A stretch of 64,000 nt of DNA from an uncultured bacterium (GCA_963822585.1 CAWGIE010000010.1:155578-219577); one strand, 5' to 3'. Numbered from the stretch's first letter, positions 1 through 62,602 are shown. Notes: generated by a model not told the origin, from the letters alone. Translations and numbers: made by a program.

Positions 1-2
1 AT

Positions 3-521
3 GGAGGACTGATCCCTATTCTTCATATCAGTGCACACGGATATAGCGAAGGCATCCAGCTTTCAGACAATACAGTGATACCCTGGGCCAATCTTAGACA
101 ATTCCTTGCTCCTATTAATACTGCATTGAAAAATGGTCTACTTGTTTGTTTGTCTTGCTGTGAGGGGTATTCTGGCACTCGAATGGCCATGTTTATAGAA
201 GACAAAGGCTATCCATTCTATGCAATAGTAGCTAACTCCGAAAAACCTCTTTGGTCAGAAACAGCTGTTGCGTATTCAACTTTTTATCACTTACTTTCTA
301 AAGGTGAATTCATTGTCGATGCAGTTAATGCAATGCGAATAGCGTCAGGAAACAAGACTTTTTGGGTAGAAACTGCAGAGCAATCTAGACAAGGTTATCT
401 AGAATACATCAGGAAAGTCAACGTTCCTGATGCCCAAGAACAACTTGAAGAAAAAGTGTCACAGGAAGAACCAACCCATCTTGCAATGCTACGCAAGGTT
501 GGGGAAGAGATAAAGCCATAA
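3..521 (+). CDS. CHAT/caspase-like peptidase domain protein, 5' end cut by window edge
   Basis: Frame of listed ORF 75..521 (GTG at 75) stays open back to nt 3 (GGLIPILHISAHGYSEGIQ...). HISAHG (His-Gly) and LLVCLSCCEGYSG (Cys) resemble the CHAT/caspase His-Cys dyad. Motif-level call only. Confidence 0.45.
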   Translation, partial: GGLIPILHISAHGYSEGIQLSDNTVIPWANLRQFLAPINTALKNGLLVCLSCCEGYSGTRMAMFIEDKGYPFYAIVANSEKPLWSETAVAYSTFYHLLSKGEFIVDAVNAMRIASGNKTFWVETAEQSRQGYLEYIRKVNVPDAQEQLEEKVSQEEPTHLAMLRKVGEEIKP

Positions 522-742
522 CGAGCTAATCCCCCGGACTCTCGTTCCTCGGGTCGGTGATCTTTGCGTTGAGCCGTCGCTCGCGCGTTGGCTCAATATG
601 ACGCTGCTTTGCCAGCGTGCGGATGATCCTTACTTTGTGCGGCCCAATCATGCTCTGGATCCTTCATCAGTCGCAAGGCGCCTCATTTTCAGAGTGGGTC
701 CGCTTCAGTCGAGGCTCAGCGCCACGTTAGACGAGCAAGAAG
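522..742. repeat. attC-like intergenic repeat, island-1 family copy A (ends ...GTCGAGGCTCAGCGCCACGTTAGAC)
   Basis: Shares TGCTT(T/C)GCCAGCG..GCGGCCCAA(T/C)CA and GTCGAGGCTCAGCGCCA blocks with copies at 1676-1860 and 2690-2880. Terminal CGTTAGAC fits an integron core site GTTRRRY. Confidence 0.5.
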
Positions 743-1675
743 ATGAAAAGAAAGCTTGAGAAATCACTGCAGGCAAAACGTGAATCGAAGCACATCGATT
801 TTAAAGAGACCTTTGATCCAGCATCCAAAGCTGATTGGTGCGAGATATTGAAGGACATAGTCGCAATGGCGAACTCAGAAGGAGGAGTAATTCTGATTGG
901 GCTGAATAATAATGGAAACCCCACCGGATCAGATGTGTCAGATATACTACAACTGGATTCAGCCTGCATTCCCGATAAGATTTATTCATACACAGAAATT
1001 CATTTCTCAGATGTGGAAATCTTGGAACTACATAAAGGGGGATACCAATTGGCGGCAATCGATATCGGTTCTGCCAAAGTCCCAATGGTTTTTGCAAAAC
1101 CCGGCACCTACGCCATATCAACTAAAGAGCAGAAAACGGCTTTCAGTCGAGGAACGATTTACTTCAGACACGGGGCGAAAAGCGAACCTGGTAACACGGG
1201 GGATCTCACTAATGTGATGGAATACCGACTAAGGGAAATCAGGAAGGAATGGATGGCTGGTGTGCGAAAAGTTGTCCAGGCACCAGTTGGATCAAGTGTC
1301 AACATTCTTCCCCCTGATGTGCATGAAACAGATTCGCCACAGGCAACCCCGATTAGAATTGTTGACGACCCGACTGCTCCCAGATATCATATTGTGGATC
1401 CAAATAAAACACATCCACATCGTCAGATGGATGTAGTCAAAAAACTGAATGGAAGGCTGAAGGGCAGAGATCCCATCAAGTCATACGATGTTTTCGCTGT
1501 GAGGCGAATGCAGGGCACAGATAAGCAGATCAAGTTCTACTATAAACCTACTTTCGGGTCTCCTCAGTATAGCCCAGCATTCGTTGAGTGGCTTGAGACA
1601 TGCTATTATAAAGATCCCGATTTTTTCAAAAAGGCACGCAATTTTATGTCAAAACAGCAGAGGAAAATCATCTAA
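743..1675 (+). CDS. AlbA_2 (Schlafen-like, divergent AAA / putative DNA-binding) domain protein
   Basis: N-terminal ESKHIDFKETFDP...EILKDIVAMANSEGGVILIGL matches the AlbA_2 signature (E.K..FD....i.k.i.AfaN..GG.l.iG). The C-terminal half is unknown. Confidence 0.65.
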   Translation: MKRKLEKSLQAKRESKHIDFKETFDPASKADWCEILKDIVAMANSEGGVILIGLNNNGNPTGSDVSDILQLDSACIPDKIYSYTEIHFSDVEILELHKGGYQLAAIDIGSAKVPMVFAKPGTYAISTKEQKTAFSRGTIYFRHGAKSEPGNTGDLTNVMEYRLREIRKEWMAGVRKVVQAPVGSSVNILPPDVHETDSPQATPIRIVDDPTAPRYHIVDPNKTHPHRQMDVVKKLNGRLKGRDPIKSYDVFAVRRMQGTDKQIKFYYKPTFGSPQYSPAFVEWLETCYYKDPDFFKKARNFMSKQQRKII

Positions 1676-1860
1676 CAAACGGCTACAGTGGACGGCTCAC
1701 ATCCGCCGTGATCCGTGGCGTTGCTTCGCCAGCGAGTTGTCGGTCCGCGCTTCACGCGGCCCAACCACACACTGGAGCTTACGCCGGTCACTGGCCCGCT
1801 TCCTCTGGGGTTGGTTCACTCCTGTCGAGGTTTAGCGTTACGTTATAGTTACTTCTATGC
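1676..1860. repeat. attC-like intergenic repeat, island-1 family copy B
   Basis: Starts TCTAACAAACGGCTACAGTGGAC right after the stop. Contains TTGCTTCGCCAGCG...GCGGCCCAACCAC. Ends GCGTTACGTTATAG. Confidence 0.5.
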
Positions 1861-1931
1861 TTTTAAATACGGTAACACCGCACCGAGTTTCATTTCGTCG
1901 ACTGGGGTGGAATCGAAGGAGGTACTGACGA

Positions 1932-2680
1932 TGAGTCAGGTGAACAGCAATGCAAAGAACCATAGAATCTCAATTCGCTGGTCCCGCGTGGATGCCCTCC
2001 TGCGAATAGGCCTGGCATTTCTCGTAATTTCAGGTCTTTTGGTCACTTTTCGCGAACGGATCGTCCTCGTCTGCAGCCACAGTGGCTTGATTGACTTCCC
2101 GATTCTCCACCTGTCGGTTCTGCTTCTCGTCTGCGTTTTATTCTTGATTGTTCAATGGTTCCGTGCCTGCTACGGCGAGATCGTGATGCTTCGCTCATAC
2201 CTAGAGGACTATGTACCTCAAATCCCCAGCGGTGGTTACTACACAGTCGTTCTCACTGCTCTCTTTCTTGGAACCATGGGTTATTTCTCGCCGCGGATCC
2301 TGATATTCTCCGCCATCTTCGTCTGTTATAACCTGTCCGACATTTGGGGCCAGTGGTATATGATAACGCGATTCCGGATCATGATCAAAAGCATGAAAAC
2401 GTCCATTCCCTCCGATGATACCCGTTGGCGTGACTGGCGGATTATTGAGACCTATTATCTTGGAAGGCCTCACATCCGGCGTTGCATCATCATTCTCGTT
2501 TGTTCTATCATCTGCGTAGTGCTCTCGACCCTTGCACTATTTCCAGATTTCGCTGGATCCTCCCGTATGCTTACCATCATCGCCTATGTTATCATGATAC
2601 TCAACATCGCGGTATCAGAGGCGATCATCATGAATTGGAGACGAATTCGCGACCGGGACCTAGAAGAGACCTACGCATGA
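1932..2680 (+). CDS. polytopic membrane protein (5-6 TM), unknown family
   Basis: ATG at 1932 is preceded by GGAGG 8 nt upstream. The protein is hydrophobic (LAFLVISGLLVTF, LLLVCVLFLIVQWF, IIILVCSIICVVLSTLALF). The listed longer ORF from 1715 reads through the upstream repeat. Confidence 0.6.
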
Positions 2681-2689
2681 TGCATGTGT

Positions 2690-2880
2690 GTCAAAGAACT
2701 CCAATAGGCCGTTGAACCAACTCAGTTCCGCTACGTGGTCCCAACTGATTAACGTAGTGCTGCTTCGCCAGCGTGCGGCTAATCCGAGCTTCGCGTGGCC
2801 CAACCACGTGTTGAATCCTTCGCCGCTCACGCCTGCGCCCCCTGCGGGGTCGCTCCGTGCGCGTCGAGGCTCAGCGCCAT
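2690..2880. repeat. attC-like intergenic repeat, island-1 family copy C
   Basis: GTGCTGCTTCGCCAGCGTGCGGCTAATCC...GCGTGGCCCAACCACGTG...GTCGAGGCTCAGCGCCA, co-linear with copies A and B. Confidence 0.5.
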
Positions 2881-2978
2881 CCCCCCAGACCCCCGCGGCT
2901 CTTGCCCCGAGATAGCCAAGCTATTTTTTGGGGTTACATCACGGGTGAATCAGTCCAGCAGCCACCCATTCCGGAATA
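2881..2978. repeat. second short repeat element (CCCCGAGATAGCsAAGCTATTTTTyGGG...GGGTGAATCAGTyCAGC)
   Basis: About 90% identical to 14712-14800. The similarity extends beyond any ORF stop, so it is DNA-level and not coding conservation. Confidence 0.5.
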
Positions 2979-3208
2979 TAGTAGTCGGCATGACCGCCGG
3001 CATGAAAGTACCTGAGCCCGGAGTTCTTCTTTTCAATCCACCCGGAATTGGTTGCGTGAATTGAGCCATAATGAAATTCACCACGGTCATTTTGCTCAAA
3101 ACCAGGGTCATCACGCGCCCGGGTTTGTCTTGACATGCCGGGATCTTTTTGCTGAAATGTAAGAAAAGAACTTCGGTATAACTTATCGTTAGTCTTAAAG
3201 ATATTGAT

Positions 3209-4036
3209 ATGGCAGTTCCTATCATAGAAGTGGACGACATCCTGGCGCACTATTTGTCACCGCGCCACATCGGCGGGGGCGGACAGAAACTCGTCTTCGT
3301 GGTCAATGATGCGCACCGAGGAGAACTCGTTCTGAAGATTGGCGGCTATCGCTCGCAGCAGGCCTTACAAAGAGCCCAAAGAGAAGTCTCCACTTTGTCG
3401 GGCATAAGTTCACAGTACTTCCCGGAACAATATGGCTTCGAGATCATTGATGACCACAGGTATGCGATCACGGAGGAATACCTACCAGGCGTGTCACTCG
3501 CCGCCGTCGTTGCGGATTTTGCCGCCGAGCCCAAGCTCATCAACCTCCTGCTTCATCTCACTCGCGGCCTCTCCGAGTTGTGGCGCAGACGAGTGGTACA
3601 CCGCGACGTAAAACCGGCAAATATCCTAATCACACCAACCGGACCAAAGATAATCGATCTCGGCATAGCGCGTCTCTTAGACTGTACATCCCTTACGCAC
3701 TCCTTCGCTCCCATCGGGCCATGCACTCCGGCATACGCCTCACCGGAGCAATTGCGCAATCGCAAACGAGACATAGACCACAGAAGTGATCAATTCAGTT
3801 TGGGTATCGTGAGCGCTCAACTTGCTATGAGTGGAACTCACCCCTTTGACACGCATCTAATCGGCGGTGACAGTGTGCCCGAGAACATTCTGGGGGGACG
3901 CTGGGCGCGGGATAACATAGCCGCTCGCGTTTCTGATCCGTTGCTCGCAGTCGTTACTCGACTTCTGGCGCCAGAACCATACATGCGATATAGAAGAGGT
4001 AAGGACATTCTGGATTCCTTGGAGAAGGCACTATAG
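3209..4036 (+). CDS. Hanks-type Ser/Thr protein kinase (minimal kinase domain only)
   Basis: Catalytic loop HRDVKPANIL. DLG (DFG variant) in IIDLGIA. Activation-loop end YASPEQ. Gly-rich IGGGGQKLVF and lysine context VLKIG. Confidence 0.8.
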   Translation: MAVPIIEVDDILAHYLSPRHIGGGGQKLVFVVNDAHRGELVLKIGGYRSQQALQRAQREVSTLSGISSQYFPEQYGFEIIDDHRYAITEEYLPGVSLAAVVADFAAEPKLINLLLHLTRGLSELWRRRVVHRDVKPANILITPTGPKIIDLGIARLLDCTSLTHSFAPIGPCTPAYASPEQLRNRKRDIDHRSDQFSLGIVSAQLAMSGTHPFDTHLIGGDSVPENILGGRWARDNIAARVSDPLLAVVTRLLAPEPYMRYRRGKDILDSLEKAL

Positions 4037-4046
4037 GGGATCGCTA

Positions 4047-5222
4047 ATGACCGCACTATTTCATCAATTGGGACATAGATTTCAGTGGAGTCTTGACAGC
4101 CTCACAGACGAAGGAACTGGTGACGGTGCTATTATCGGACCGCGATATATGGACCGTTCCTGTGTTACGAGACTGCCAGATGCAATCAGGACCGTATCTT
4201 TATTCGACCCTCAGTTCTTCCTGCCCCAATCTGCGCAGGGTAAGCTCTCAACATATCCTTTCTTCCCTCAAGTGATTGCCGGGGGATTTGCGACTACCGA
4301 ATGGGACGAAACGCTCGGAGATCGATGTGCGCAGGAGTGCTTGCGATTCCAGGACGAATGTGCATTTGGTAGTCTTGTCATTCCCGGCCGGTTCTATGAT
4401 GGCATGCCATCCGATTTTGTCGAGCGACAGGAAACCCAATTTGTCCGACCATTCATGGAGGCAGCCGAAAGGCTCGGACTGCGTCGGCCAATTCTTCTGC
4501 AGTTGATCGTTACAGACCAGATGCTCCGCGATGAAAGATATCAGGCTGACTTGCTTAACTGGGTCACATCATTCCCCGAACTTGCAGGGGTTTATCTCAT
4601 CTACCACGTGCATAACCGCAGAAAACAGATCGATGATATTGACTTCCTGATAGGTGTTTTACAGTTCTGCCGGTCGCTTAAGCAAGCCGATCTGCGCGTG
4701 GTTGTCGGGTATACCAACACAGAAGCGATCCTCCTCTCATGTGTCGAAGTCGACGTCGTATCAATGGGGGCTTACGAGAACTTGAGGATGTTCAGCACAA
4801 CAGCCTTTGAGGAAAGGGATGAGAGCCCACGCCGCGGGCCGAATGCCCGAGTATACATACCGCGGCTTCTTCAATGGGTTGAGTATCCATACCTTGGTGC
4901 TATTCGGCGCGTGGTTCCAGACATCGATGCCTACATCCACGATAACGAACATCGGGTTGAGATGTTTTCCCCTATCTACAACTGGCATTTTACAAAGCCG
5001 CATCCGTATAAGCACTTCTTTGGTGCCTTTGCCGATCAATTTCGGCGAATATGCTCTACAACGGGAGCCCTTCGGATTGACGCGGTGGTCCAGGAGTGTG
5101 AGCGGGCAATACAAGAGTATGACCAATTGTCCAGATCGGGCTTGGTTTTTGATCCCGAAAGCGCTGGCACGCACATCCCGAGATGGCTTACCGCACTGAA
5201 TCTGTGGCGGCGCACACTATGA
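4047..5222 (+). CDS. hypothetical protein (391 aa), no recognisable family, operon partner of the kinase
   Basis: Starts 10 nt after the kinase stop. Intermediate GC like the rest of the island. No motif recognised. Confidence 0.6.
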   Translation: MTALFHQLGHRFQWSLDSLTDEGTGDGAIIGPRYMDRSCVTRLPDAIRTVSLFDPQFFLPQSAQGKLSTYPFFPQVIAGGFATTEWDETLGDRCAQECLRFQDECAFGSLVIPGRFYDGMPSDFVERQETQFVRPFMEAAERLGLRRPILLQLIVTDQMLRDERYQADLLNWVTSFPELAGVYLIYHVHNRRKQIDDIDFLIGVLQFCRSLKQADLRVVVGYTNTEAILLSCVEVDVVSMGAYENLRMFSTTAFEERDESPRRGPNARVYIPRLLQWVEYPYLGAIRRVVPDIDAYIHDNEHRVEMFSPIYNWHFTKPHPYKHFFGAFADQFRRICSTTGALRIDAVVQECERAIQEYDQLSRSGLVFDPESAGTHIPRWLTALNLWRRTL

Positions 5223-5740
5223 AGAGAAACAAGTCAGAGTTTCATTCAGAGAAGAAGCTTTCTCGCATGTTCCAAGCTGCACGGGTGATCAAGAGCAAAA
5301 TGCGTTACCACAATTGGGAGTCGTGGGAGGCGCATGAGCTTCAAGGTCTATTTGGCGTCCCCGACAACCTTCTGGTCTTGTGGAAGTCAAAACGCTCCGG
5401 CAATCGCGTAGTTCGCACCGTCGCATTCGAAATCAAACGCGAGAAGTGGCCCAGAGCACTTATTCAAGCCTACAAGTATCGCGCCTTTGCCGACTACTCT
5501 TTCGTTGTAATGGACGCGGCTTTCGTGCACAGAGCGGTAGCTGCAATCGATAAGTTCAAATGCGCGAACATTGGTCTGCTTTCTGTTTTCAAGACAGGAG
5601 AAGTTGAATGGCATCATACTCCCCGTCTCTGTCGCCCATATTCCGACAGCGCGAGGACTTTCTTGCGAGAGACAATCCACGCTCACCTGTTTAATGTCCC
5701 TAGACGCAACGGAGGCCCAACAATCAAATGGACCGTATAG
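5219..5740 (+). CDS. hypothetical protein with PD-(D/E)xK-like nuclease motif
   Basis: ATGA overlap with the previous stop (5219-5222). VPDNLLVLWKSK...VAFEIKREKW...ALIQAY resembles a PD...E-x-K core (Hjc/NucS-like). Inference only. An alternative start at 5183 exists. Confidence 0.5.
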   Translation: MKRNKSEFHSEKKLSRMFQAARVIKSKMRYHNWESWEAHELQGLFGVPDNLLVLWKSKRSGNRVVRTVAFEIKREKWPRALIQAYKYRAFADYSFVVMDAAFVHRAVAAIDKFKCANIGLLSVFKTGEVEWHHTPRLCRPYSDSARTFLRETIHAHLFNVPRRNGGPTIKWTV

Positions 5741-5797
5741 TGAACACGCTGTGTGTTTACTGAAGGTCATTTGCGTCATTGGCGCAGAAGAAAGAGA

Positions 5798-7918: not shown

Positions 7919-8002
7919 ACCCCGCCACGGGGTTCGCGCCAATGAAGCGCAACGTTGAACGTCTGAATGTTGCCGGGAACCGGGGATAAAGGTTGAGCAC
8001 TT

Positions 8003-10870
8003 ATGAGTAGGACATTCGACCAAGGCAAAGATGAAGTTGCAAAGCTGTGCCAATTCTTCGCCACTAACCAGCATTCCTTTCGCGCCCCGAATGTCAAGGA
8101 AGCCCATGTTCGCCAATCGCTCATCAACCCTTTTTTCGAAGCGCTTGGTTGGGACGTGCGCAATAACTCCATGGCCGCACCCCAATATCGCGAAGTCATT
8201 CCCGAAGACAGTCTGGATGTGGAAGGTCACCAGAAGGCGCCCGACTACACCTTCCGCGTCGGCACCTTGCCGAAGTTCTACGTCGAAGCCAAGAAGTGCG
8301 GCGTCAATATCAGCACCGATCCTGGCTCGGCCTATCAACTTCGCCGCTACGGTTTCAGCGCCAAACTTCCTCTATCCATCCTGACCGACTTCGAGGAATT
8401 CAGCGTGTACGATTGTTCCTCTCGCCCTCGCCCCGGCGATAAGGCCAGCCATGCCCGTATCCAGTATTTAGACTTCACCGAGTATCCTGACCGTTGGCGG
8501 GAGATTTGGGACGTGTTCTCACGCGAGGCGGTCTGGTCTGGGGCATTCGACAAGTATGCTGCCTCCAAGCGCAAGCGCGGCACCTCCGAGGTTGACAGCG
8601 AGTTTCTGAAGGATATCGAAGGCTGGCGCGATGTATTGGCACGAAACCTCGCTCTCCGCAACAGCGATTTGTCGGTAGACGATCTCAACGCTGCCGTTCA
8701 ACGGATCATTGACCGGATCGTCTTCCTGCGGATGGCCGAAGACCGCAGATTGGAATCTTATGGGCGACTACTTAGGCTCTGTGAGCGACCACATATCTAC
8801 GACCGTTTTATGAGCGAATTGTGTCGTAAGGCTGACGAAAAATATAACTCCGGCCTGTTCCACTTCCAGAAAGAACCCGGCATTTCTGATGCGCCTGACA
8901 CACTCACACCTCGTCTGACTGTAGACGACAAGGTTCTCAAACTCATTCTTCAAAGCCTTTACTTCGAATACGGTTGCCCATACCACTTTGGTGTCCTACC
9001 CGTAGAAATCCTCGGTACAGTGTACGAACGTTTCCTCGGCAAAGTCATCCGCCTGACCGCCGGGCATAAAGCCAAAGTCGAGGAAAAACCCGAAGTGCGC
9101 AAGGCCGGCGGCGTGTACTATACCCCTGCCTATATAGTGAATTATATTGTCCAGAATACCGTCGGAAAACAGATTGAAGGCAAAAGCCCGGCCAAGCTCT
9201 CCGGCGGCAAAACCAAGCCCCCCTTCCGCGTGCTCGATATGGCCTGTGGAAGTGGCTCCTTTCTCATCGGAGCTTATCAATTCCTGCTGGAACATTGCCT
9301 GAAGTGGTATCTGCACAACCCCACTAAAAAATACGCCAAGGCCACCTATAGGGACGCTAAAGGTGAGCTTCATCTTACTATCGAGGAACGCAAGCGAATT
9401 CTCATCACCCACATCTACGGCGTTGATATTGACCGGCAGGCCGTTGAAACCACCAAGCTCTCGCTACTGTTGAAGGCTCTCGAAGGTGAAAACGACGCCA
9501 CGCTTTCTCAACAGATGTTACTATTCCACGAACGCGCATTACCAAATCTATCCCACAATATCAAATGCGGAAACTCCCTTATCGCCTCTGACTTCTCAAT
9601 GGATCCCGAAGACTTAGTGCGTGTCCATGCCTTCGATTGGCCTGCACAATTCCCCGATGCCATAAAAGCTGGTGGATTCGATACCGTTATCGGTAATCCA
9701 CCGTATTTATATTCCGCGGGACAAGACAACATTGGTTATTTTCAATCAAACTTTCAATTCAGCGAATATCAAACCGACTTTTACGTATATTTCATCGAGA
9801 AGGCGATTAAACTCACTAAGCCCCAAGGACTGTTGTCTTTTATTGTTTCAGATTCCTGGCTCAAGGCAGAGAACTTTTCAAAACTCAGAAAACATCTCTT
9901 GACGGAACACAGGCTTAATCGACTTGCCATTTTTCAATTCCCGCCATTTGCGGGGGCAACTATCGAGAATTCGATTCTTGTGGTCTCCAAAAACGGGAAG
10001 CCTATGGATATTCCCATTGACTCTTTTTCAGAACCAGAAGTGTTTCGGCAAATCAATATTGTCTCCCCTTCTGTCGCGGCTAACCGTGGATTAGTTGATC
10101 CACGATTCTCAAACAAAGCCGAGAAACTCATTCAAAAACTTGAGCTACACAGCTCGCACCTCGAATCTATTACAGAGATTAACCGTGGAATTCACGCATA
10201 TCGCACAGATGGCTACGGCAAATCTAAGTTTGGCCCGGGACCTCAAACTAAACGCGACAAGGAAGAACAGTCCTACCACGCAAAAAGCCCGCTGAATAAA
10301 ACCTATTTGCCGGAATTAAAAGGTAAAAATGTTTTCCGATTTGAGAGTGTTCCGAGTGGTGACTTTGTTTCCTACGGAAATTGGCTGGCTGAATCCCGCC
10401 AGCCAAAATATTTTCTAAATCCAAAGATTGCCCTCCGCAAAGTTCTTGGGAAAAAACTTCATGGAACCTTCCTGCCGAACCCCGTCATATTAGACCAATC
10501 ACTTTATGTAATGATTTCAACCAGCAATGACGAAGATCATTTAAAGTTTCTTCTTGGCATCCTGCTTTCGAGTGTCGGAGCTTGGTATTTAAGAACCAAG
10601 TTTGCCATCTATGACACATTATACCCTTGGTATACTCGCAAACAGCTGGCCTCGTTCCCGATTAAAGGCGAAAACCCTTGCTTAGTGGAGTTGGTGGAGA
10701 AGATGTTGGTGCTGATGCCGAAGCTGCGCGAGGCTACATCGGAATCCGAAAAGGCCGCATTGCAGAATGCCATAACGACGACTGATGCGGAGATCGACCG
10801 TCTGGTGTATGAACTGTACGGCCTGACGGAGGAGGAAATCAAAATTGTTGAAGGGGAATGCTGCCGATGA
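8003..10870 (+). CDS. Type IIG restriction-modification enzyme (MmeI/Eco57I-like fused endonuclease and N6-adenine methyltransferase with TRD)
   Basis: N-terminal PD-ExK (APDYTFRV...FYVEAKK). SAM motif I VLDMACGSGSFL. Motif IV IGNPPYLY. A roughly 350-aa C-terminal region is the candidate target-recognition domain. Total length 955 aa. Confidence 0.75.
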   Translation: MSRTFDQGKDEVAKLCQFFATNQHSFRAPNVKEAHVRQSLINPFFEALGWDVRNNSMAAPQYREVIPEDSLDVEGHQKAPDYTFRVGTLPKFYVEAKKCGVNISTDPGSAYQLRRYGFSAKLPLSILTDFEEFSVYDCSSRPRPGDKASHARIQYLDFTEYPDRWREIWDVFSREAVWSGAFDKYAASKRKRGTSEVDSEFLKDIEGWRDVLARNLALRNSDLSVDDLNAAVQRIIDRIVFLRMAEDRRLESYGRLLRLCERPHIYDRFMSELCRKADEKYNSGLFHFQKEPGISDAPDTLTPRLTVDDKVLKLILQSLYFEYGCPYHFGVLPVEILGTVYERFLGKVIRLTAGHKAKVEEKPEVRKAGGVYYTPAYIVNYIVQNTVGKQIEGKSPAKLSGGKTKPPFRVLDMACGSGSFLIGAYQFLLEHCLKWYLHNPTKKYAKATYRDAKGELHLTIEERKRILITHIYGVDIDRQAVETTKLSLLLKALEGENDATLSQQMLLFHERALPNLSHNIKCGNSLIASDFSMDPEDLVRVHAFDWPAQFPDAIKAGGFDTVIGNPPYLYSAGQDNIGYFQSNFQFSEYQTDFYVYFIEKAIKLTKPQGLLSFIVSDSWLKAENFSKLRKHLLTEHRLNRLAIFQFPPFAGATIENSILVVSKNGKPMDIPIDSFSEPEVFRQINIVSPSVAANRGLVDPRFSNKAEKLIQKLELHSSHLESITEINRGIHAYRTDGYGKSKFGPGPQTKRDKEEQSYHAKSPLNKTYLPELKGKNVFRFESVPSGDFVSYGNWLAESRQPKYFLNPKIALRKVLGKKLHGTFLPNPVILDQSLYVMISTSNDEDHLKFLLGILLSSVGAWYLRTKFAIYDTLYPWYTRKQLASFPIKGENPCLVELVEKMLVLMPKLREATSESEKAALQNAITTTDAEIDRLVYELYGLTEEEIKIVEGECCR

Positions 10871-10947
10871 CGACGCCCAACAATCAGGTGAAGGCAACGC
10901 GGACGACCACGCGCCTCATCCATCACGTTAGCCAAGAGGATTGAAAT
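10871..10947. repeat. short attC-like site (GCCCAACAATCAGG ... CACGTTAGCC)
   Basis: GCCCAAC fits the inverse core RYYYAAC. AACAATC resembles class-1 59-be starts. Ends in a CGTTAGCC core-like motif 9 nt before the next ATG. Confidence 0.4.
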
Positions 10948-12222
10948 ATGAGGACAGATCAGGTCTTTGGCATATCACCCGAGGTACGTGAGTATTCTTA
11001 TGTTGATCGCGGCAATCTCGACGCAGCTTTGGCCACAATGCTTAAGAGGACTACTCACATTGCTATCCGCGGGCCATCAAAGTCAGGTAAATCTTGGCTT
11101 CGGCAGAAAGTGCTGGGAAATCCGATAACGGTGCAGTGTAGACTCAAGAAACCATTCACCGACATATATGTCGATGCGCTTTCACAGCTAAACATAAACA
11201 TCCAGGTCAAAGAATCACGGCAAGGCGTCTTCAAGGCAAACCTTTCCGCAATGGGCGAAGCAGGTTCAGCACTACTGGCCAAAGTTGGCATCACGGCATC
11301 TCTCGGTCGTGATGTCGCAAACCTGACCGAGCAGAGCATAGTCGGTCATGATATCAACGATCTAAAATATATTGCGGATATCATCAAATCGTCCGATCGT
11401 CGCCTTGTCATTGAGGATTTTCACTACATGTCTACGTCTGATCGACGCAGTTTTGCGTTTGATTTGAAAGCGCTCTGGGATTACGGAGTCTTCGTCGTCA
11501 TCATTGGAGTCTGGTCTGAAACAAATCTATTACTCCATCTGAATCCTGATCTTACCGGCAGAGTGACAGAATTACCGATTGACTGGGTACACGATGACTT
11601 AGTGCGGATACTTACAAAAGGAGGGGATGCGCTTCGCATCGAGTTCGCTCCAAGAATTCAATCTCTGCTCGTATCCTTGTCCTATTCCAACGCAGGATTG
11701 CTTCAGCAACTTACACTCCTGACCCTTGATGAAGCGGGAGTCTATGAGAAGGGCTTTCTTAAGAAGACAATAGATAATATCGCTCACGTAGATGGCGCGA
11801 GCATGGTCTACGCGGAGCAACTAAATCCGGTATATCAACAATTTGCAAAGCGCGTCGCAGCTGGCGTCAGGACGCGAAAAAACGCTACGGGAATTTATGC
11901 CCATGCAATGGCTGTTATATTGGATGCATCGGACGAGGAGCTTGTTAAGGGACTCCATGCCCGTTCAATTTTTGAAAGAGCCGTGAAGCGCCAAGAGCGT
12001 ATTCAGTATAGCAACTTGAAGGCAATTCTCGATCAACTTGAAGGGTTGCAAGTGGATGATGACGGTCGCGGGCTGATTCTTGGATATAGTCCAGCGACCG
12101 AGGAGATTACCATCGTTGATCGCCAATTGCTTCTTTATCGCCGATTTGCCACTGTAAAATGGCCATGGGAAGATTTGATCCGCGAGGCTGATGCATTTGG
12201 TGGGCAAATAGAAGCAGGCTAA
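10948..12222 (+). CDS. P-loop NTPase (AAA-like ATPase)
   Basis: Walker A IRGPSKSGKSWL. Walker B RLVIEDFHYM (hhhhDE-type). 424 aa. Confidence 0.7.
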   Translation: MRTDQVFGISPEVREYSYVDRGNLDAALATMLKRTTHIAIRGPSKSGKSWLRQKVLGNPITVQCRLKKPFTDIYVDALSQLNINIQVKESRQGVFKANLSAMGEAGSALLAKVGITASLGRDVANLTEQSIVGHDINDLKYIADIIKSSDRRLVIEDFHYMSTSDRRSFAFDLKALWDYGVFVVIIGVWSETNLLLHLNPDLTGRVTELPIDWVHDDLVRILTKGGDALRIEFAPRIQSLLVSLSYSNAGLLQQLTLLTLDEAGVYEKGFLKKTIDNIAHVDGASMVYAEQLNPVYQQFAKRVAAGVRTRKNATGIYAHAMAVILDASDEELVKGLHARSIFERAVKRQERIQYSNLKAILDQLEGLQVDDDGRGLILGYSPATEEITIVDRQLLLYRRFATVKWPWEDLIREADAFGGQIEAG

Positions 12223-12287
12223 TCAGCGGGTGGAATACTACGGCCTGAAATGGACCAAGGCTTACCCGTGCTGTTCATCAAATAGCA

Positions 12288-13325
12288 ATGAAACTTATCG
12301 GCCACACAATCTTGGATATCTACGGCGTAGAGCGCATACCTCTCGATGGCGAATATACAACAGATCGCCTCGCCGAGGTTATGATCGAGAACTGGGTGCC
12401 CTTTATAGAATGCCATAGGAAATGCTGCCGCGCCGATTCCTGCAAATTCGCCCCAAAGAAGAAAGGAGAGGATATTCGCTGTGAGGTTGCGGTAAAGGTA
12501 ATACGGAATTTCGTGCATATCACTTCTTCGATCCTCGAAGGGTTGAACAGCATACAAATACAGAAATACTTGGACGGAGCATTTTTTTTGTCGAGGTTCA
12601 TTTTCGAAGCTGAGGGCACGGTGGGGATGTGTATGGACGAGGACTGCGTCAGATACTGGGATGAAATGGCCCCAATACTTTTTGGACGACTGACGCGGCT
12701 GCGAGGCAATCTTAACGACCTTGCCACCAACTGGAAAGAGATACCCGAGCTTCGCGCAACTCAGCACGTGCTACTGGTCGAGGGAGAGTCAGAGCGCGCT
12801 TTCCTCGACGAGTTGAGAAAGTCTCACAGCAGTTGGTTCTTGGACCTCAATATTGACGTGTACGGGGGAAAGGGGAACCGCCGTCCTGGCAGGATCCAGA
12901 TGCTATTGAAACGCTATATTTGCCAAGGGTATACCGTTTATGTAGTGGGCGATGCGGATGGAGCGAATACAGATATCTTCGAGCGACTTGTGGATAGCGG
13001 GTTGGTCAAGAGAGAGAGCACGTTCATTTTCACTCACGATTTCGAGACATCGCTTCCGATTGGGTTACTTCTGCATGTTCTCAAAAACCTTCACTTGATT
13101 GGCGATACTGCCTATTGCCGAGAGCTTCTGGATCATCGAAGTGGCTCCGTGGTACAGCAACTCAAGGATGGTTCTTCACTCGATATAGGTCCGCACAAGG
13201 TTGCCGTGGCCCAGGCAGTCGCACGCGTCCTCAACCATCCCGATGTCATATGGTGGCAGAACGATGGGTTCATGAAAGAGAGTGAACTAGGGCGGTTCCT
13301 CCGCTTCATCCAAGGGATCAGATAG
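12288..13325 (+). CDS. TOPRIM-type (OLD/DUF4435-like) nuclease domain protein with N-terminal Cys-rich segment
   Basis: HVLLVEGESERAFL (Toprim conserved Glu) and VYVVGDADGANTD (DxD) about 75 aa downstream. CHRKCCRADSCKF is a possible Zn site. Partner of the upstream ATPase. Confidence 0.5.
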   Translation: MKLIGHTILDIYGVERIPLDGEYTTDRLAEVMIENWVPFIECHRKCCRADSCKFAPKKKGEDIRCEVAVKVIRNFVHITSSILEGLNSIQIQKYLDGAFFLSRFIFEAEGTVGMCMDEDCVRYWDEMAPILFGRLTRLRGNLNDLATNWKEIPELRATQHVLLVEGESERAFLDELRKSHSSWFLDLNIDVYGGKGNRRPGRIQMLLKRYICQGYTVYVVGDADGANTDIFERLVDSGLVKRESTFIFTHDFETSLPIGLLLHVLKNLHLIGDTAYCRELLDHRSGSVVQQLKDGSSLDIGPHKVAVAQAVARVLNHPDVIWWQNDGFMKESELGRFLRFIQGIR

Positions 13326-13521
13326 ATCCTGGCGAACAATCGACTACAACGTTACACCGGCTTCGCTATATTGCATCGGCGAAGTTGTGGTGGAGTGTTC
13401 ATGAAAAAGCATTCAAGATCCTTGATCTGCAATAAGTGCAGGGGAAAACTGAAGTGGGAAAGATTCAAAAAAAACGGCGAACGCTTCAGAACTGTCTTGT
13501 GGTAATCTTTATAGCGACATT

Positions 13522-13773
13522 GTGGAGGAAATTTACATGGTACTCATCGAAGCAAAAGTAATGGACGCAACCCATCTGGAGTTGACAAAGCCCATCACCG
13601 CAAAACGGGGCAAGAAGGTGTTCGTCGTGGTTGCCGAATCCGCGGAGCAGGACGCGGAACGGCGGGAGTGGCTTGAGGGGTCGGCTGCGACTCTGTGCTC
13701 AGCCTACGGCGATTCCGAGCCCGATTACACCCCTGACATGGTCAGAGAAAGCAATCAGGACTATGAGACATGA
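13522..13773 (+). CDS. DUF104-like putative antitoxin
   Basis: MVLIEAKVMDATHLELTKPI...GKKVFVVVAE follows the DUF104 pattern (M.I.A.YENGVLKPLE...G..V.V.I). RBS GGAGG upstream. Confidence 0.4.
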   Translation: MEEIYMVLIEAKVMDATHLELTKPITAKRGKKVFVVVAESAEQDAERREWLEGSAATLCSAYGDSEPDYTPDMVRESNQDYET

Positions 13774-13826
13774 AGGAAGCCGACATCATTCTCACGCCTC
13801 TGCCGCAGGCTGACGTTCAACAATAA
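13770..13826 (+). pseudogene. MazF/PemK-family toxin remnant, truncated after 18 codons
   Basis: ATGA overlap with the antitoxin stop. MKEADIILTPLPQADVQQ* resembles the PemK/MazF N-terminus (GDIVLVPFPFTD), then stops. The next gene follows with its own RBS. Confidence 0.4.
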
Positions 13827-13838
13827 AGGAGGCAAAAA

Positions 13839-14585
13839 ATGAATGCATATCGAATGACCGTGTTGATTGCCCTGCTGATCGCGGGAATAGCTCACACAAC
13901 ATGGGCGGATGATTGCTCCAAGATATCAGTCTCTGGTTCAGCCACCAAACAACTCAAACCGGATGTCGCGTACATCACGCTCTACGTGAACGGAGACGGC
14001 GTGCTGATGTCAGATGCGGCCAAGAAAGCAGACGACAATGTTGAGACAGTTCTCAAGGCCGTCAAGGAAGGACGAACTAACATCATCGACATTGCCGTAA
14101 CAACAATTGATGTCGGAGAAAAAAGTTCTCGCACCTGGAGCAGCGACCAACAGAGCACTCCCCCAAGGCCGCAGGTATCCAAGCGATTGATGATCGCTAT
14201 CCCGCCGGATTCAACCTTGGCGTATGAAATTATTGATGCCGCAATCAGAGCGGGAGCGATTCTGGCTCGCGATAGTATGACGCACTACTCGGGCGAAGTG
14301 CGTGGAACCGTGGTCTATGGCGTCCGGGATGGAGCAGCAATCGAGGAAGAATTAAATAAGGACGCGTTTGCGGATGCCCGCAAGGAAGCAGAAAAAACGG
14401 CGCAATACGCGGGGAAGAGTGTTGGGCCGTTGTGTTCTATCGGGTGCCAATCGACGACATTATGGTCCCAGAGGATGGTGTTTGGCGAAAAGGCGACGGA
14501 GTATCCGACGAAGTACCTGAGCACAGACTCGAAACAGATCGAGATCAAGGCCACGGTATTGGCAACTTTTGAGCTTCAAGATTAA
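13839..14585 (+). CDS. SIMPL/DUF541 (BP26/YggE-like) periplasmic protein
   Basis: Signal peptide MNAYRMTVLIALLIAGIAHTTWA. SIMPL-like GSATKQLKPDVAYITLYV and late KATV..TFEL. RBS AAGGAGG. Confidence 0.6.
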   Translation: MNAYRMTVLIALLIAGIAHTTWADDCSKISVSGSATKQLKPDVAYITLYVNGDGVLMSDAAKKADDNVETVLKAVKEGRTNIIDIAVTTIDVGEKSSRTWSSDQQSTPPRPQVSKRLMIAIPPDSTLAYEIIDAAIRAGAILARDSMTHYSGEVRGTVVYGVRDGAAIEEELNKDAFADARKEAEKTAQYAGKSVGPLCSIGCQSTTLWSQRMVFGEKATEYPTKYLSTDSKQIEIKATVLATFELQD

Positions 14586-14800
14586 GAACCGTCGAACCAT
14601 TGGCTTCAGTTTGTCCGGATGCCCCGACGGCATTCTCGATCCTAATGCGCTCACGGCCGGTCCCCCTTCGGCGCCGGAGCGCTCACGTCGGAATCCAGTG
14701 CCATCCCCCTTAAATCCCGCGGCTTTTACCCCGAGATAGCGAAGCTATTTTTCGGGATTACGCTGTGGGTGAATCAGTTCAGCGATCATCCATGCCGTAA
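14586..14800. repeat. composite intergenic repeat: attC-like part plus copy of the 2881-2978 element
   Basis: 14712-14800 is nearly identical to 2890-2975. The upstream part is GC-rich and palindromic. Confidence 0.5.
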
Positions 14801-14933
14801 TTAAAGAATCGTTGGCAAAGAAGATATTAAAGAATTTGAATTCTGGATGAATGACCGGACAACCGGTTGCAGCGGACAAGGCTCCGCGTCGCCGTTGAAT
14901 AGGAATGTTGAACAAACATAAAAGGAGGGAAAC

Positions 14934-15374
14934 ATGAAACTGCCGGAGTATATCACTGCCGAGGAAGTAAAAAGAGTCTGCGACGAAATCGGTTTGAGGG
15001 ATTGGTCCACGATCACGGAGCCGACCGTTTCAGAAGAAGAAGCATCCGCGATTCTTAAGATCGTGAATACCAGGGGGATGGAAATCCCCCGGGAGGCTTT
15101 CCGCAAGGGATTGGAAGTTGAGCTGGAGCATGGAACACGGTTTGAGGACGCGAATGTCACGAACAACCACCCGATCCTGACCGGCCAGATCGTTATCGCG
15201 CACCTCAAAGAGACCATGGATTATTATGAAAGAATCGATGTCGCTGAAATGGAAGGCGATTTATTGCACGCTGTCCTGTCTCGCAACCTCGAAAAGATAG
15301 AATCAAAGTATAAAAAACTCATCGCGGCCCGCACTGCCCTGAATCGATCGGTTGCCGACCAATTGCAGAAATGA
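14934..15374 (+). CDS. hypothetical protein (146 aa)
   Basis: Strong RBS AAAAGGAGGG. Last + strand gene before the GC jump. No family recognised. Confidence 0.6.
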   Translation: MKLPEYITAEEVKRVCDEIGLRDWSTITEPTVSEEEASAILKIVNTRGMEIPREAFRKGLEVELEHGTRFEDANVTNNHPILTGQIVIAHLKETMDYYERIDVAEMEGDLLHAVLSRNLEKIESKYKKLIAARTALNRSVADQLQK

Positions 15375-15450
15375 ATATAACCTGCGGCTTGTCCTTATGC
15401 GGGAGCAGCGTGGACTAAAGGAGAAGCGAAAGAGGGGTTAGAGACGATCG

Positions 15451-60639: not shown

Positions 60640-60775
60640 CAAGCTGCTCGATCAGCTGGAAAGGCTGCGCGCTTCGCGCTCCGCCTATCCAGCCGCTCGA
60701 GCAGAAATCGGCCTAATCGCCGAGCAAGCTCGGCATTAGGTCAATTCTGCTGCTCAGCTTCTCCGTTCTGGAGGT
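60640..60775. repeat. attC-like imperfect inverted repeat (first recombination site of array 2)
   Basis: CTATCCAGCCGCTCGAGCAGAAATCGGCCTAATCGCCGAGC / GCTCGGCATTAGGTCAATTCTGCTGCTCAGC arms. Shares its left end with sites at 62835 and 63730. Confidence 0.5.
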
Positions 60776-60779
60776 AAAA

Positions 60780-61293: not shown

Positions 61294-61350
61294 TATTCAT
61301 TTTTCTCTTACTTGAAAATATATGCAAAATCGATAATTGAATTAATCTCC

Positions 61351-61420: not shown

Positions 61421-61424
61421 TGAT

Positions 61425-61808: not shown

Positions 61809-61814
61809 GAACAT

Positions 61815-62590: not shown

Positions 62591-62602
62591 AAAAGAAATC
62601 AA

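What the first reader, a model, noticed from the sequence alone, without database searches (positions are those of the whole stretch)
1..15450. Lower-GC island of 15 co-oriented genes separated by attC-like repeats: probable integron cassette array (or CALIN) full of defence genes
Every gene from 3 to 15374 is on the + strand. Intergenic spaces at 522-742, 1676-1860, 2690-2880 and 14586-14711 hold members of one repeat family (TGCTTCGCCAGCG...GCGGCCCAACCA...GTCGAGGCTCAGCGCCA). Repeat ends look like integron recombination sites: TCTAACAAACGGCTACAG right after a stop codon, and CGTTAGAC or GCGTTACGTTATAG just before the next ORF. Shorter attC-like spacers (GCCCAACAATCAGG...CACGTTAGCC at 10871-10947; GGCGAACAATCGAC...CAACGTTACAC at 13330-13360) separate other units. 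Left-end motifs (GGCTACAGTGGAC) recur in the second array at 61351 (CGCTACAGCAGAC), which links both arrays to one attC family. The cargo is CHAT, AlbA_2, Type IIG RM, ATPase with TOPRIM, TA remnants and the kinase/Mrr operon. This is what has been described for defence-carrying sedentary chromosomal integrons. GC rises abruptly to about 65% at about 15.4 kb.
Basis: partly seen in the sequence, partly recalled or inferred. Interest (0 to 1): 0.8.

Follow-up and report, generated by a model that had tools for sequence, protein, structure and literature searches.

The report
Decayed integron array carrying defence genes
The low-GC island is best read as a partly decayed integron gene-cassette array loaded with anti-phage genes, a known kind of element, but its long repeats are not plain recombination sites: they are small, gene-less, strongly folded cassettes that also occur in unrelated bacteria.

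Summary
Fifteen + strand genes lie in a 45-53% GC island that ends at about 15.44 kb. One repeat family is present: three good copies and one degenerate copy.

I built an attC covariance model only from class-1 plasmid attC sites. It recovers the window's second array (45, 32, 18 and 13 bits), which lies next to a truncated intI. In the island it finds two sites: 14857-14913 (26.8 bits) and 10875-10933 (17.7 bits). It does not accept the long repeats.

Those repeats form a separate family. Relatives occur in a Lentisphaerae MAG and two metagenome contigs. In two of these, the unit starts exactly at the R' box of a model-supported attC, so it behaves as its own gene-less cassette of about 150-200 nt. 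Well-preserved copies fold as single-stranded DNA into a three-way junction (z -10.7 and -6.2) with compensatory changes. The window's copies are decayed, and two are truncated.

PADLOC supports defence cargo: a Type IIG restriction-modification enzyme, a PD-T4-6-like kinase and a PDC-S59 ATPase. CHAT is not supported. A 7.7 kb stretch of seven genes has no attC.

No intI is visible, because the window starts inside the array. Defence genes in integrons are already described.

The parts
1..521 (+). 3' part of gene 1. The full protein is 243 aa (locus L001 62-793). No family was assigned and CHAT is not supported.
516..574 (+). Weak attC-like site of the gene 1 cassette. R'' is CCATAAC, overlapping the stop codon. 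R' is GTTGAGC, which is also the first half of hairpin H1.
   Evidence: The class-1 attC model gives only 7.4 bits (L001 788-846), which is within noise. The assignment rests on position and on the homologous arrangement in L005 and L008.
569..732 (+). Module M1 (repeat r1), a gene-less cassette. It comprises hairpin H1 (568-597), the outer arm GCTG (601-604) with only partial pairing of the 5 nt before it, hairpin GCTG-CTTTGC-CAGC, a hairpin that sequesters GCCCAAT (642-648), an L-box-like stem CTG[G]ATCCT[T]C / G-AGGCT-CAG, and R' GTTAGAC (726-732).
727..1726 (+). AlbA_2/Schlafen-like gene cassette. The gene is at 743-1675. The cassette starts at TTAGAC. Its own short attC-like site at 1670-1726 has R'' ATCTAAC, which is 6/7 complementary to GTTAGAC.
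   Evidence: Pfam PF04326 at 7.7e-17. The attC model gives only 9.2 bits. The boundary logic is read from the sequence.
1721..1848 (+). Module M2 (repeat r2). It lacks most of H1, and its 3' arm carries C-to-T changes. R' is GTTATAG (1842-1848).
1931..2680 (+). Membrane-protein gene (249 aa, no family). It is followed by a collapsed R''/R' pair, AAAGAAC..GTTGAAC, at 2693-2717.
2712..2879 (+). Module M3 (repeat r3). It is truncated one base before the R' box, at GCGCCA|TCCCCCC.
2880..3208 (.). Element X, of unknown nature. It holds a 66-codon minus-strand ORF (2939-3139) and an R'-like GTTAGTC (3189-3195) 14 nt before the kinase gene. Its left end recurs at 14705-14801, and its right end recurs upstream of gene 1.
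3209..7918 (+). Six-gene operon: protein kinase (PD-T4-6-like), two unknown proteins, Mrr-type nuclease, HATPase_c protein, and receiver domain.
8003..10870 (+). Type IIG restriction-modification enzyme (Eco57I/MmeI-like).
   Evidence: Pfam. PADLOC REase_MTase_IIG at 6e-172.
10875..10933 (+). attC site of 59 nt. R'' is GCCCAAC and R' is GTTAGCC. The next ORF starts 15 nt downstream.
   Evidence: The class-1 attC model gives 17.7 bits, E 0.026, which is above the negative control. The fold z-score is not significant.
10948..13325 (+). Two-gene unit: an ATPase (PADLOC candidate PDC-S59, 2.8e-182) and an OLD-type TOPRIM protein (weak hit).
13331..13357 (+). Collapsed site. R''-like GGCGAAC and R'-like GTTACAC lie 13 nt apart. 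It is too short to be a working attC.
   Evidence: no model hit
13522..14585 (+). An 83-aa ORF, an 18-codon MazF-like stub (13770-13826), and a SIMPL/DUF541 gene (13839-14585).
   Evidence: The toxin stub was judged by eye only.
14620..14801 (+). Degenerate module remnant (r4, 3' half) joined to X' at the same junction as r3|X.
14857..14913 (+). attC site of 57 nt. R'' is GGACAAC and R' is GTTGAAC. The RBS and ATG of the next gene lie 21 nt downstream.
   Evidence: The class-1 attC model gives 26.8 bits, E 5.5e-5. The fold z-score is not significant.
14934..15441 (+). DUF5661 gene (14934-15374) and the right end of the island. ATATAAC..GTTAGAG at 15376-15441 has no model support. The backbone gene TauE starts at 15451.
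59592..59945 (-). Truncated integron integrase gene of the second array. It is 117 aa: an N-terminal piece fused to the C-terminal 39 residues.
   Evidence: NCBIfam TIGR02249 at 7.5e-11 over model positions 277-315.
60615..63850 (+). Second cassette array. It holds one copy of the same module (60615-60773) and attC sites at 61349-61417, 61816-61887, 62519-62584 and 63332-63387. Long attC-like sites lie at about 62846-62970 and 63740-63840.

Best explanation
Positions 1-15441 are a stretch of an integron cassette array, of the 'attC cluster without visible integrase' type as far as the window shows. It has partly decayed and carries mostly anti-phage genes.

Inferred history. Units were inserted one after another by an integron integrase that recombines the folded bottom strand of attC sites at G|TT. 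This explains three features: every unit has the same orientation, R' boxes sit a few bases before ribosome-binding sites, and composition is foreign.

The left 2.9 kb alternates two kinds of unit:
- Small gene cassettes: gene 1, AlbA_2 and a membrane protein.
- A gene-less cassette family, the 'module' of about 150-200 nt. It has no conserved protein. In its well-preserved relatives, the single-stranded bottom strand folds into a three-way junction with three parts:
  - P1, a 13-16 bp helix between an outer R''-like arm and the R'/L' arm.
  - P2, the L-box-like stem.
  - P3, a hairpin that sequesters a second, inner R''-like box.

My inference is that the module is an attC-derived cassette whose fold either locks the site against excision or insulates the downstream defence gene from read-through. 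Neither role is shown.

The array here is no longer fully mobile. Two modules lost their R' box to an unknown 330-bp element (X), two attC sites are collapsed, and the short attCs at 516-574 and 1670-1726 score within noise. The 7.7 kb kinase-Mrr-RM block has no internal site, so it is either one oversized cassette or a later insertion.
For: - Independent attC model, built from 10 class-1 sites taken from plasmid records. All six hits of at least 13 bits in the 64 kb window are on the + strand inside the two low-GC arrays. Two are in the island: 26.8 bits at 14857-14913 and 17.7 bits at 10875-10933.
- Negative control: in 51.5 kb of unrelated DNA, the best full-length hit is 11.8 bits.
- The second array validates the model (45.2 and 32.4 bits). 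It has textbook hairpins with two bulged bases and a truncated intI.
- The module family occurs only in the two arrays.
- Module relatives in L008 and L005 start exactly at the R' box (GTTGAGC) of model-supported attC sites (25.1 bits, E 3e-5; 20.5 bits, E 7e-4). L004 also holds a parse-supported attC-like site at 1814-1877 that the model did not report.
- The AlbA_2 cassette starts at TTAGAC, and its own R'' is ATCTAAC, 6/7 complementary. This is expected if G|TTAGAC was its R' in circular form.
- Module structure: L004 dG -78 kcal/mol, z -10.7; L008 z -6.2. RNAalifold recovers P1 and P3. 83% of cells are paired, against 23-43% when partners are slid. Eight pairs changed on both sides. Covariation is 0.29, against 0.05-0.13.
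- The module has no conserved protein and no Rfam family.
- Defence cargo by PADLOC.
Against: - The attC model does not accept the modules. The best hit is 10.1 bits, in L004.
- The window's own copies fold no better than shuffles (z -1.7 to +0.1).
- The short attCs at 516-574 and 1670-1726 score within noise (7.4 and 9.2 bits).
- The two model-supported sites do not fold better than shuffled sequence (z +0.4 and -0.3).
- There is no attC for 7.7 kb (3209-10870). Cassettes are usually about 0.5-1 kb, and published integron defence systems are described as streamlined for size (10.1101/2024.07.02.601686).
- No intI or attI is seen, because the window starts inside the array and the only other contig adds 272 bp.
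- My model is a proxy for IntegronFinder's model, built from only 10 seeds with trimmed loops.
- The module family has only 7 members, 4 of them from this window, so the covariation statistics are thin.
Confidence: 0.62

Rival explanations
1. Mixed origin. Only the flanks (about 1-2880 and 10875-15441) are cassette-array remnants. The central 3209-10870 block (kinase-Mrr-HATPase-receiver operon plus the Type IIG enzyme), together with element X, arrived by another route, such as homologous recombination between the r+X repeats or an unrecognised mobile element. The island would then be an ordinary defence island that grew on top of a dead integron array.
For: - No attC-model hit lies in the 7.7 kb block.
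- Direct repeats r3+X (2796-2977) and r4+X' (14620-14801) at 70-73% identity flank 11.8 kb.
- X interrupts two modules at the same base, which is not the integrase crossover point G|TT.
- X's right end also precedes gene 1.
Against: - GC and gene orientation in the central block are the same as in the flanks.
- An R'-like GTTAGTC sits 14 nt before the kinase gene, and a model-supported attC follows the RM gene directly. This is what a single oversized cassette would look like.
- No transposase, other recombinase or terminal inverted repeats are seen.
Confidence: 0.25
2. The long repeats act at the RNA level. They would be structured leaders, terminators or small RNAs that control the downstream defence genes, and their resemblance to attC sites would be secondary.
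For: - A strong conserved fold with compensatory changes.
- Every module precedes a gene: AlbA_2, the membrane protein, an MTase-like N-terminus in L004, and a SIR2-like N-terminus in L008.
- G-T pairs are about as frequent on the top strand as on the bottom strand overall (15 against 20), so the strand that folds is not settled.
Against: - Module ends coincide with R'' and R' consensus boxes, and with the crossover point of model-supported attC sites in L005 and L008.
- In the two best-preserved copies, all four non-Watson-Crick pairs are G-T on the bottom strand only.
- No Rfam family matches.
- No U-run terminator and no sigma-70-like promoter lies in the modules.
Confidence: 0.1
3. The repeats are a REP or MITE family of the host genome, unrelated to integrons.
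For: - They are about 125-180 nt, intergenic and palindrome-rich.
- The attC model rejects them.
- The genome does hold REP-like families elsewhere.
Against: - No copy lies in the 44 kb backbone between the arrays, while the backbone repeat families never occur in the arrays.
- Relatives in other phyla lie in cassette arrays.
- There are no terminal inverted repeats or target-site duplications.
Confidence: 0.03

Closest known systems
[quoted passage not shown]
   Same: - Co-oriented, promoter-poor genes of foreign composition.
- attC sites directly after ORFs and a few bases before the next RBS.
- Toxin-antitoxin remnants.
- Defence cargo: RM, kinase, ATPase/TOPRIM and AlbA_2.
   Different: - Several sites are decayed or truncated.
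- One 7.7 kb, seven-gene stretch lacks any site, whereas described integron defence systems are compact.
- The integrase status is unknown.
- The host appears to be an uncultivated lineage that is absent from the GTDB representative genomes.
Gene-less integron cassettes of Vibrionaceae superintegrons (Blanco et al., bioRxiv 10.1101/2023.11.21.568050 / PMC11014356)
   Same: - Cassette-sized units bounded by recombination points.
- No conserved protein.
- Interspersed among gene cassettes.
   Different: - The unit here is little more than one long attC-like structure (about 140 nt from outer R'' to R') plus a roughly 15-nt palindromic cap.
- It is conserved between this genome, a Lentisphaerae MAG and two metagenome contigs of unknown host, and it folds into a three-way junction.
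- Promoter activity, the function shown for the Vibrio cases, is neither supported by a consensus scan nor testable here.
Long attC sites with a branched variable terminal structure, such as Vibrio cholerae repeats (attC range 57-141 bp; Nivina et al. 2016, PMC5027507)
   Same: - RYYYAAC...GTTRRRY ends.
- Length at the upper end of the known range.
- A branched single-strand fold.
- Bulged bases on the 5' arm of the top strand.
   Different: - The five bases that form the unpaired central spacer in ordinary sites are fully paired with the outer arm, with compensatory changes.
- A second, inner R''-like box is locked in its own hairpin.
- The branch sits where the first extrahelical base normally is.
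- A class-1-derived attC model does not recognise the unit.

Membership tests
Complete integron | An intI gene (tyrosine recombinase with the IntI-specific insertion) next to the array, divergently oriented, with attI and Pc. | not testable with these tools
   The window starts inside the array. The only other contig (L001) adds 272 bp. The source genome is not among the GTDB representatives. The only intI in the window is the truncated one at 59592-59945, which belongs to the second array.
[quoted passage not shown] | At least two attC sites accepted by an attC covariance model, on the same strand, no more than 4 kb apart. | tested here: met
   A proxy model built from 10 class-1 attC sites gives 10875-10933 (17.7 bits, E 0.026) and 14857-14913 (26.8 bits, E 5.5e-5). 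Both are on + and lie 3924 nt apart. This is not IntegronFinder's own model.
attC site (applied to the long repeats r1-r4) | Accepted by an attC covariance model. | tested here: not met
   No hit at E of 10 or below for 642-732, 1759-1848 or 590-732. The L004 copy reaches 10.1 bits as a partial match.
attC site (applied to the long repeats r1-r4) | R'' RYYYAAC and R' GTTRRRY boxes at the ends. | tested here: met
   r1 has GCCCAAT...GTTAGAC, r2 has GCCCAAC...GTTATAG, L004 has GCCCAAC...GTTAGCC and L008 has GCCCAAC...GTTCGGC. Outer boxes are GCTCAAC or GCTCAAT. r3 and r4 lack R'.
attC site (applied to the long repeats r1-r4) | An unpaired central spacer, and an L box with extrahelical bases on the arm that is 3' in the bottom strand. 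| tested here: inconclusive
   The inner reading fits: spacer 6/6, then CTG[G]AGCCT[T]CG against CG-AGGCT-CAG. This is the same geometry as the ereA attC, and [G] also occurs in the VIM-1 and cmlA5 sites. However, the thermodynamically favoured and covarying fold pairs the spacer with the outer arm and locks the inner R'' in hairpin P3.
Gene-less integron cassette | Bounded on both sides by integrase crossover points (G|TT), with no ORF of a conserved protein. | tested here: met
   The left boundary is the R' of model-supported attC sites in L008 (25.1 bits) and L005 (20.5 bits). No protein relatives of the translation were found. In the window itself the left-hand attCs are weak (7.4 and 9.2 bits).
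Gene-less integron cassette | Promoter activity (the function shown for the Vibrio examples). | not testable with these tools
   The consensus scan finds no sigma-70-like site in the modules, and the total number of sites is below the shuffle mean. This says little for an unknown host.
REP / MITE | Many copies dispersed through the genome in non-integron contexts. | tested here: not met
   All five copies in the 64 kb window lie in the two low-GC arrays, and none lies in the 15.5-59.5 kb backbone. Only the window could be tested, not the whole genome.
Sedentary chromosomal integron | A large array (more than 10-20 cassettes) with highly similar attC sites, vertically inherited. | not testable with these tools
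   Only about 10 units are visible, and their attC sites are heterogeneous. No sister genomes could be found.

The most novel reading that the evidence does not exclude
The 'module' would be an undescribed class of mobile, gene-less integron cassette. It would be an attC-derived element that folds into a three-way junction, spreads between phyla and sits in front of defence cassettes. A perfectly complementary outer arm and a hairpin that hides a second R'' box would form a built-in switch, either locking the recombination site or insulating the downstream, potentially toxic defence gene from read-through.
Probability: 0.3. Interest if true: 0.6.

Novelty: new member of a known kind. Interest (0 to 1): 0.42.

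Why it matters
Integron arrays as stores of anti-phage genes were described in 2024-2025, mostly in Vibrio and other cultured Gammaproteobacteria. This locus extends that picture to what appears to be an uncultivated lineage. It also shows large multi-gene systems (a Type IIG RM and a kinase-Mrr operon) embedded in such an array.

The more original point is the structured gene-less cassette. It is shared between this genome, a Lentisphaerae MAG and two metagenome contigs of unknown host. If it modulates recombination or expression, it would be a new regulatory part of integrons.

It would also be a practical problem. Standard attC models miss it, so cassette boundaries around it would be drawn wrongly.

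Tried and rejected
- **Rfam.** No family matched at gathering scores over the window, and none at E of 1 or below over the related loci.
- **tRNA scan** for an integration site found none.
- **Source genome and upstream intI.**
  - The genome contigs pattern scan found only one true relative and not the source.
  - The metagenome scan found two more relatives and five chance hits in coding DNA.
  - Viral contigs gave nothing.
  - Exact-protein look-ups gave only short contigs of the same sample or nothing.
- **The module as a protein.** A plus-strand frame, LLRQR..P.F.RPN, looked conserved with some synonymous changes. Frames shift between members, and a 5.8-billion-protein search with the alignment found nothing. 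Rejected.
- **Group II intron domain V/VI remnant for hairpin H1.** Rejected, because H1 has no bulge and there is no Rfam hit.
- **Strict hand-written attC architecture scan.** It found only the two perfect sites of array 2. Relaxed versions reached noise level before reaching r1 and r2.
- **First alignments of full-length class-1 attC sites.** They misaligned the 3' arms. I replaced them with loop-trimmed seeds.
- **Sigma-70 promoter and terminator scan.** Nothing exceeded chance, and nothing lay in the modules.
- **Strand of the fold, judged from G-T pairs.** 20 pairs on the bottom strand against 15 on the top, which is not decisive.

Full report
**1. The observation**

The first 15.4 kb hold fifteen ORFs on the + strand. 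GC is 0.45-0.53, against 0.55-0.65 in most of the backbone. It reaches 0.62 at 16-17 kb, so the rise at about 15.4 kb is real but slightly smaller than stated.

One repeat family is present:
- GTCGAGGCTCAGCGCCA occurs exactly twice, where 0.2 is expected.
- A profile built only from relatives in other organisms hits 564-727, 1714-1842 and 2747-2878 at E 2e-19, 2.5e-20 and 2.8e-15. It hits nothing in the backbone.
- The fourth copy is only a degenerate 3' half (14634-14703, E 0.04).
- Copies 3 and 4 both break off at GCGCCA|TCCCCC. This is one base before the R' box that copies 1 and 2 carry. Both then run into a shared sequence, 2880-2977 and 14705-14801.

**2. A yardstick for attC sites**

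No attC model is available in Rfam, and no Rfam family hits the window. I therefore built one that owes nothing to this window.

- I located class-1 integron arrays in plasmid records through the aadA1 attC/3'-CS junction and fetched seven arrays.
- I extracted the attC sites of aadA1, aadA2, aac(6')-IIa, aac(6')-Ib-cr, dfrA27, dfrA12, arr-3, ereA, blaVIM-1 and cmlA5.
- I trimmed their variable loops, aligned them and built a covariance model. The model encodes R box, 5-6 nt spacer, 3 bp, bulge, 6 bp, bulge, stem.

With filters off over the whole window, the six hits of at least 13 bits are all on the + strand and all inside the two low-GC regions:

| Site | Bits | E-value | Region |
|---|---|---|---|
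| 61816-61887 | 45.2 | 1.8e-10 | second array |
| 61349-61417 | 32.4 | not recorded | second array |
| 14857-14913 | 26.8 | 5.5e-5 | island |
| 62519-62584 | 18.0 | not recorded | second array |
| 10875-10933 | 17.7 | 0.026 | island |
| 63332-63387 | 13.4 | not recorded | second array |

The best backbone hit is 11.3 bits. In 51.5 kb of unrelated DNA, the best full-length hit is 11.8 bits and the best partial hit is 14.3 bits.

The second array is a true, if dead, integron:
- Its sites fold as classic hairpins with two bulged bases (z -4.4 and -5.7).
- The 117-aa ORF at 59592-59945 (minus strand) matches the integron-integrase model TIGR02249 best, but only over the last 39 model positions.

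The model therefore works. The island contains two sites that pass it, and both sit a few bases before the RBS of the next gene. They are 3.9 kb apart, which satisfies the usual operational definition of an attC cluster without integrase.

**3. What the long repeats are**

The model rejects the long repeats. No hit at E of 10 or below appears for the window's copies, and the best relative scores 10.1 bits. The window's copies also do not fold better than shuffles.

They are nevertheless tied to integrons:
- Pattern scans found true relatives in a Lentisphaerae MAG (L004) and in two metagenome contigs (L005, L008).
- In L008 and L005 the repeat begins exactly at the R' box (GTTGAGC) of a model-supported attC that closes the preceding gene cassette (25.1 bits, E 3e-5; 20.5 bits, E 7e-4).
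- L004 also holds a parse-supported attC-like site at 1814-1877 that the model did not report.
- A fifth, diverged copy in this window lies in the second array (60615-60773).

The repeat is therefore a unit of its own. It is bounded on the left by a crossover point G|TTGAGCC and on the right by its own R' (GTTAGAC, GTTATAG, GTTAGCC or GTTCGGC). In other words, it is a gene-less cassette of about 150-200 nt.

The same boundary logic works in the window. The AlbA_2 cassette starts at TTAGAC (727), and its own short attC-like site begins with ATCTAAC (1670). This is 6/7 complementary, as expected if G+TTAGAC was its R' box in the circular form. That short site itself scores only 9.2 bits, and its counterpart after gene 1 (516-574) scores 7.4 bits. 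Both are within noise.

**4. Anatomy of the module**

From 5' to 3' on the top strand:
1. A perfect hairpin H1, GTTGAGCC...GGCTCAAC. Its first half is the split R' box and its second half is an R''-like box.
2. An outer arm of 5 nt plus GCTG.
3. A hairpin P3 that contains a second R''-like box, GCCCAAC.
4. An L-box-like stem P2 with bulged bases, CTG[G]AGCCT[T]CG against CG-AGGCT-CAG. This has the same geometry as the ereA site, and [G] also occurs in the VIM-1 and cmlA5 sites.
5. CAGC, 5 nt, and R'.

The outer arm is the exact complement of CAGC plus 5 nt plus R', and it changes in step with them:

| Copy | Outer arm | Partner |
|---|---|---|
| L004 | GGCGAGCTG | CAGCTCGCC |
| L008 | GTGGCTCTG | CAGAGCCAC |
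| Array-2 copy | GGAGAGCTGAGCAGCA | TGCTGCTCAGCTTCTCC |

Folded as single-stranded DNA, the bottom strand of the L004 copy gives -78 kcal/mol (z -10.7) and the L008 copy gives z -6.2. Both adopt the same three-way junction of P1, P2 and P3.

- RNAalifold on six copies recovers P1 and P3, with 10 pairs changed on both sides.
- For my 28-pair structure, 83% of cells pair, against 23-43% when partners are slid.
- Eight pairs have double changes, against 1-5 in the slid controls.
- The covariation score is 0.29, against 0.05-0.13, and at most 5 of 500 shuffles reach the observed values for the first three measures.

With only six sequences this is suggestive, not conclusive.

The translation has no relatives among 5.8 billion proteins, and no Rfam family matches.

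In the two best copies, all four non-Watson-Crick pairs are G-T on the bottom strand only. Over all copies the split is 20 to 15, so the strand that folds is not settled.

**5. Layout of the island**

| Coordinates | Feature |
|---|---|
| to 521 | gene 1 |
| 516-574 | weak attC |
| 569-726 | module M1 |
| 727-1720 | AlbA_2 cassette |
| 1721-1842 | module M2 (lacks H1; 3' arm has C-to-T changes) |
| 1843 to about 2711 | membrane-protein cassette, with a collapsed R''/R' pair |
| 2712-2879 | module M3 (no R') |
| 2880-3208 | element X |
| 3209-10870 | seven genes without any site |
| 10875-10933 | attC |
| 10948-13325 | ATPase + TOPRIM |
| 13331-13357 | collapsed site |
| 13522-14585 | toxin-antitoxin remnant and SIMPL |
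| 14620-14801 | module remnant + X' |
| 14857-14913 | attC |
| 14934-15374 | DUF5661 |
| from 15451 | backbone |

Cargo:
- PADLOC gives REase_MTase_IIG at 6e-172 for 8003-10870.
- It gives PD-T4-6 at 4.6e-29 for the kinase.
- It gives PDC-S59 at 2.8e-182 for the ATPase.
- It gives weaker candidate-system hits for AlbA_2, the Mrr protein and the HATPase_c protein.
- Pfam agrees on the domains.
- Gene 1 matches nothing, so 'CHAT' is unsupported.

**6. Mechanism, and which steps are shown**

Shown:
- Integron-type sites, correctly oriented and positioned.
- A shared repeat family that occurs only in cassette arrays, here and in other phyla.
- A conserved fold of that family.
- Defence-type cargo.
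- Decay of several sites.

Inferred:
- The units were inserted by an integron integrase at G|TT.
- The module is an attC-derived gene-less cassette.
- Its fold either locks the site or insulates the downstream gene. In that fold, the outer arm pairs the bases that are the unpaired spacer in working sites, and the inner R'' is hidden in P3.

Unexplained:
- Element X, which replaced the R' box of two modules at the same base and whose right end also precedes gene 1.
- The 7.7 kb block without a site.

The main rival is a mixed origin. In that reading, the central block plus X arrived by another route onto a dead array.

**7. Comparison with what is known**

- Defence systems in chromosomal integron cassettes are published (10.1101/2024.07.02.601686). 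That work stresses compact, streamlined systems.
- Gene-less cassettes are published for Vibrionaceae, where many carry promoters (10.1101/2023.11.21.568050).
- attC sites of 57-141 bp with branched terminal structures are known in chromosomal integrons (PMC5027507).

The island is therefore a new member of a known kind.

The module differs from all three precedents:
- Its spacer is paired and covaries.
- It has a second R'' box that is sequestered.
- The branch sits at the position of the first extrahelical base.
- It is conserved across this genome, a Lentisphaerae MAG and two metagenome contigs of unknown host.

I did not find it described. My literature search was limited to four queries of an open-access library.

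**8. Verdict**

- The integron interpretation is partly supported.
- The 'attC-like repeats' are reinterpreted as composite spacers, each made of a weak gene-cassette attC plus a structured gene-less cassette.
- No integrase can be shown.
- Overall interest is moderate. Most of the interest lies in the module.

Noticed in passing
window 59592-63900: A second, clearer integron remnant. It has a truncated intI (117 aa, N-terminal piece fused to the last 39 residues), then a cassette array of small ORFs with canonical attC hairpins. An IS110-like transposase gene starting at 63920 closes it within the window.
   Followed up: partly
window 59233-59579: Six tandem units of about 46 nt, GTAGCACAGACATTCCTGTCTGTGCGGGGCGTCC.., each with a GTAG head and a palindrome. 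This is a REP/BIME-like cluster directly after metK (58096-59286), followed by a terminator hairpin.
   Followed up: no
window 23560-23666, 41668-41765, 51477-51583, 53947-54046: Four intergenic loci where 3-4 tandem octamers GGAGTGNT face the same number of inverted octamers (ANCACTCC) across a short centre. This is an unusual long-hairpin repeat family of the backbone.
   Followed up: no
window 2880-3208, 14705-14801; L001 3-40: Element X. It is a 330-bp unit with a 66-codon minus-strand ORF that has no family. It is joined to two module copies at the identical base, and its right end is reused upstream of gene 1 and of the kinase operon. Its nature is unknown.
   Followed up: partly
window 2693-2717 and 13331-13357: Two 'collapsed' sites where an R''-like box and an R'-like box are only 11-13 nt apart (AAAGAAC..GTTGAAC and GGCGAAC..GTTACAC). 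They may be deletion remnants of attC sites.
   Followed up: no
window 13522-13826: An 83-aa ORF overlaps by ATGA an 18-codon ORF, MKEADIILTPLPQADVQQ*. The short ORF resembles the N-terminus of MazF/PemK-type toxins. This is probably a toxin-antitoxin remnant, judged by eye only.
   Followed up: no
window 3209-7918: An operon that combines a PD-T4-6-like Ser/Thr kinase, two proteins without any family, an Mrr-type nuclease, a GHKL ATPase-domain protein and a stand-alone receiver domain. It may be an undescribed multi-gene defence system.
   Followed up: partly
L008 1-640 (minus strand) and L004 2948-3038: In the related contigs, the module is followed by a SIR2-like gene (L008) and by an MTase/restriction-enzyme-like N-terminus, MNYVKSKQRVADHGEVFTPAWMVEAML (L004). 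This suggests the module often precedes defence genes. Both were judged from the sequence only.
   Followed up: no
window 24353-24597, 30882-31121, 45506-45743: A backbone repeat family of about 240 nt (75-89% identity), present three times in intergenic regions. It is unrelated to the array repeats.
   Followed up: no
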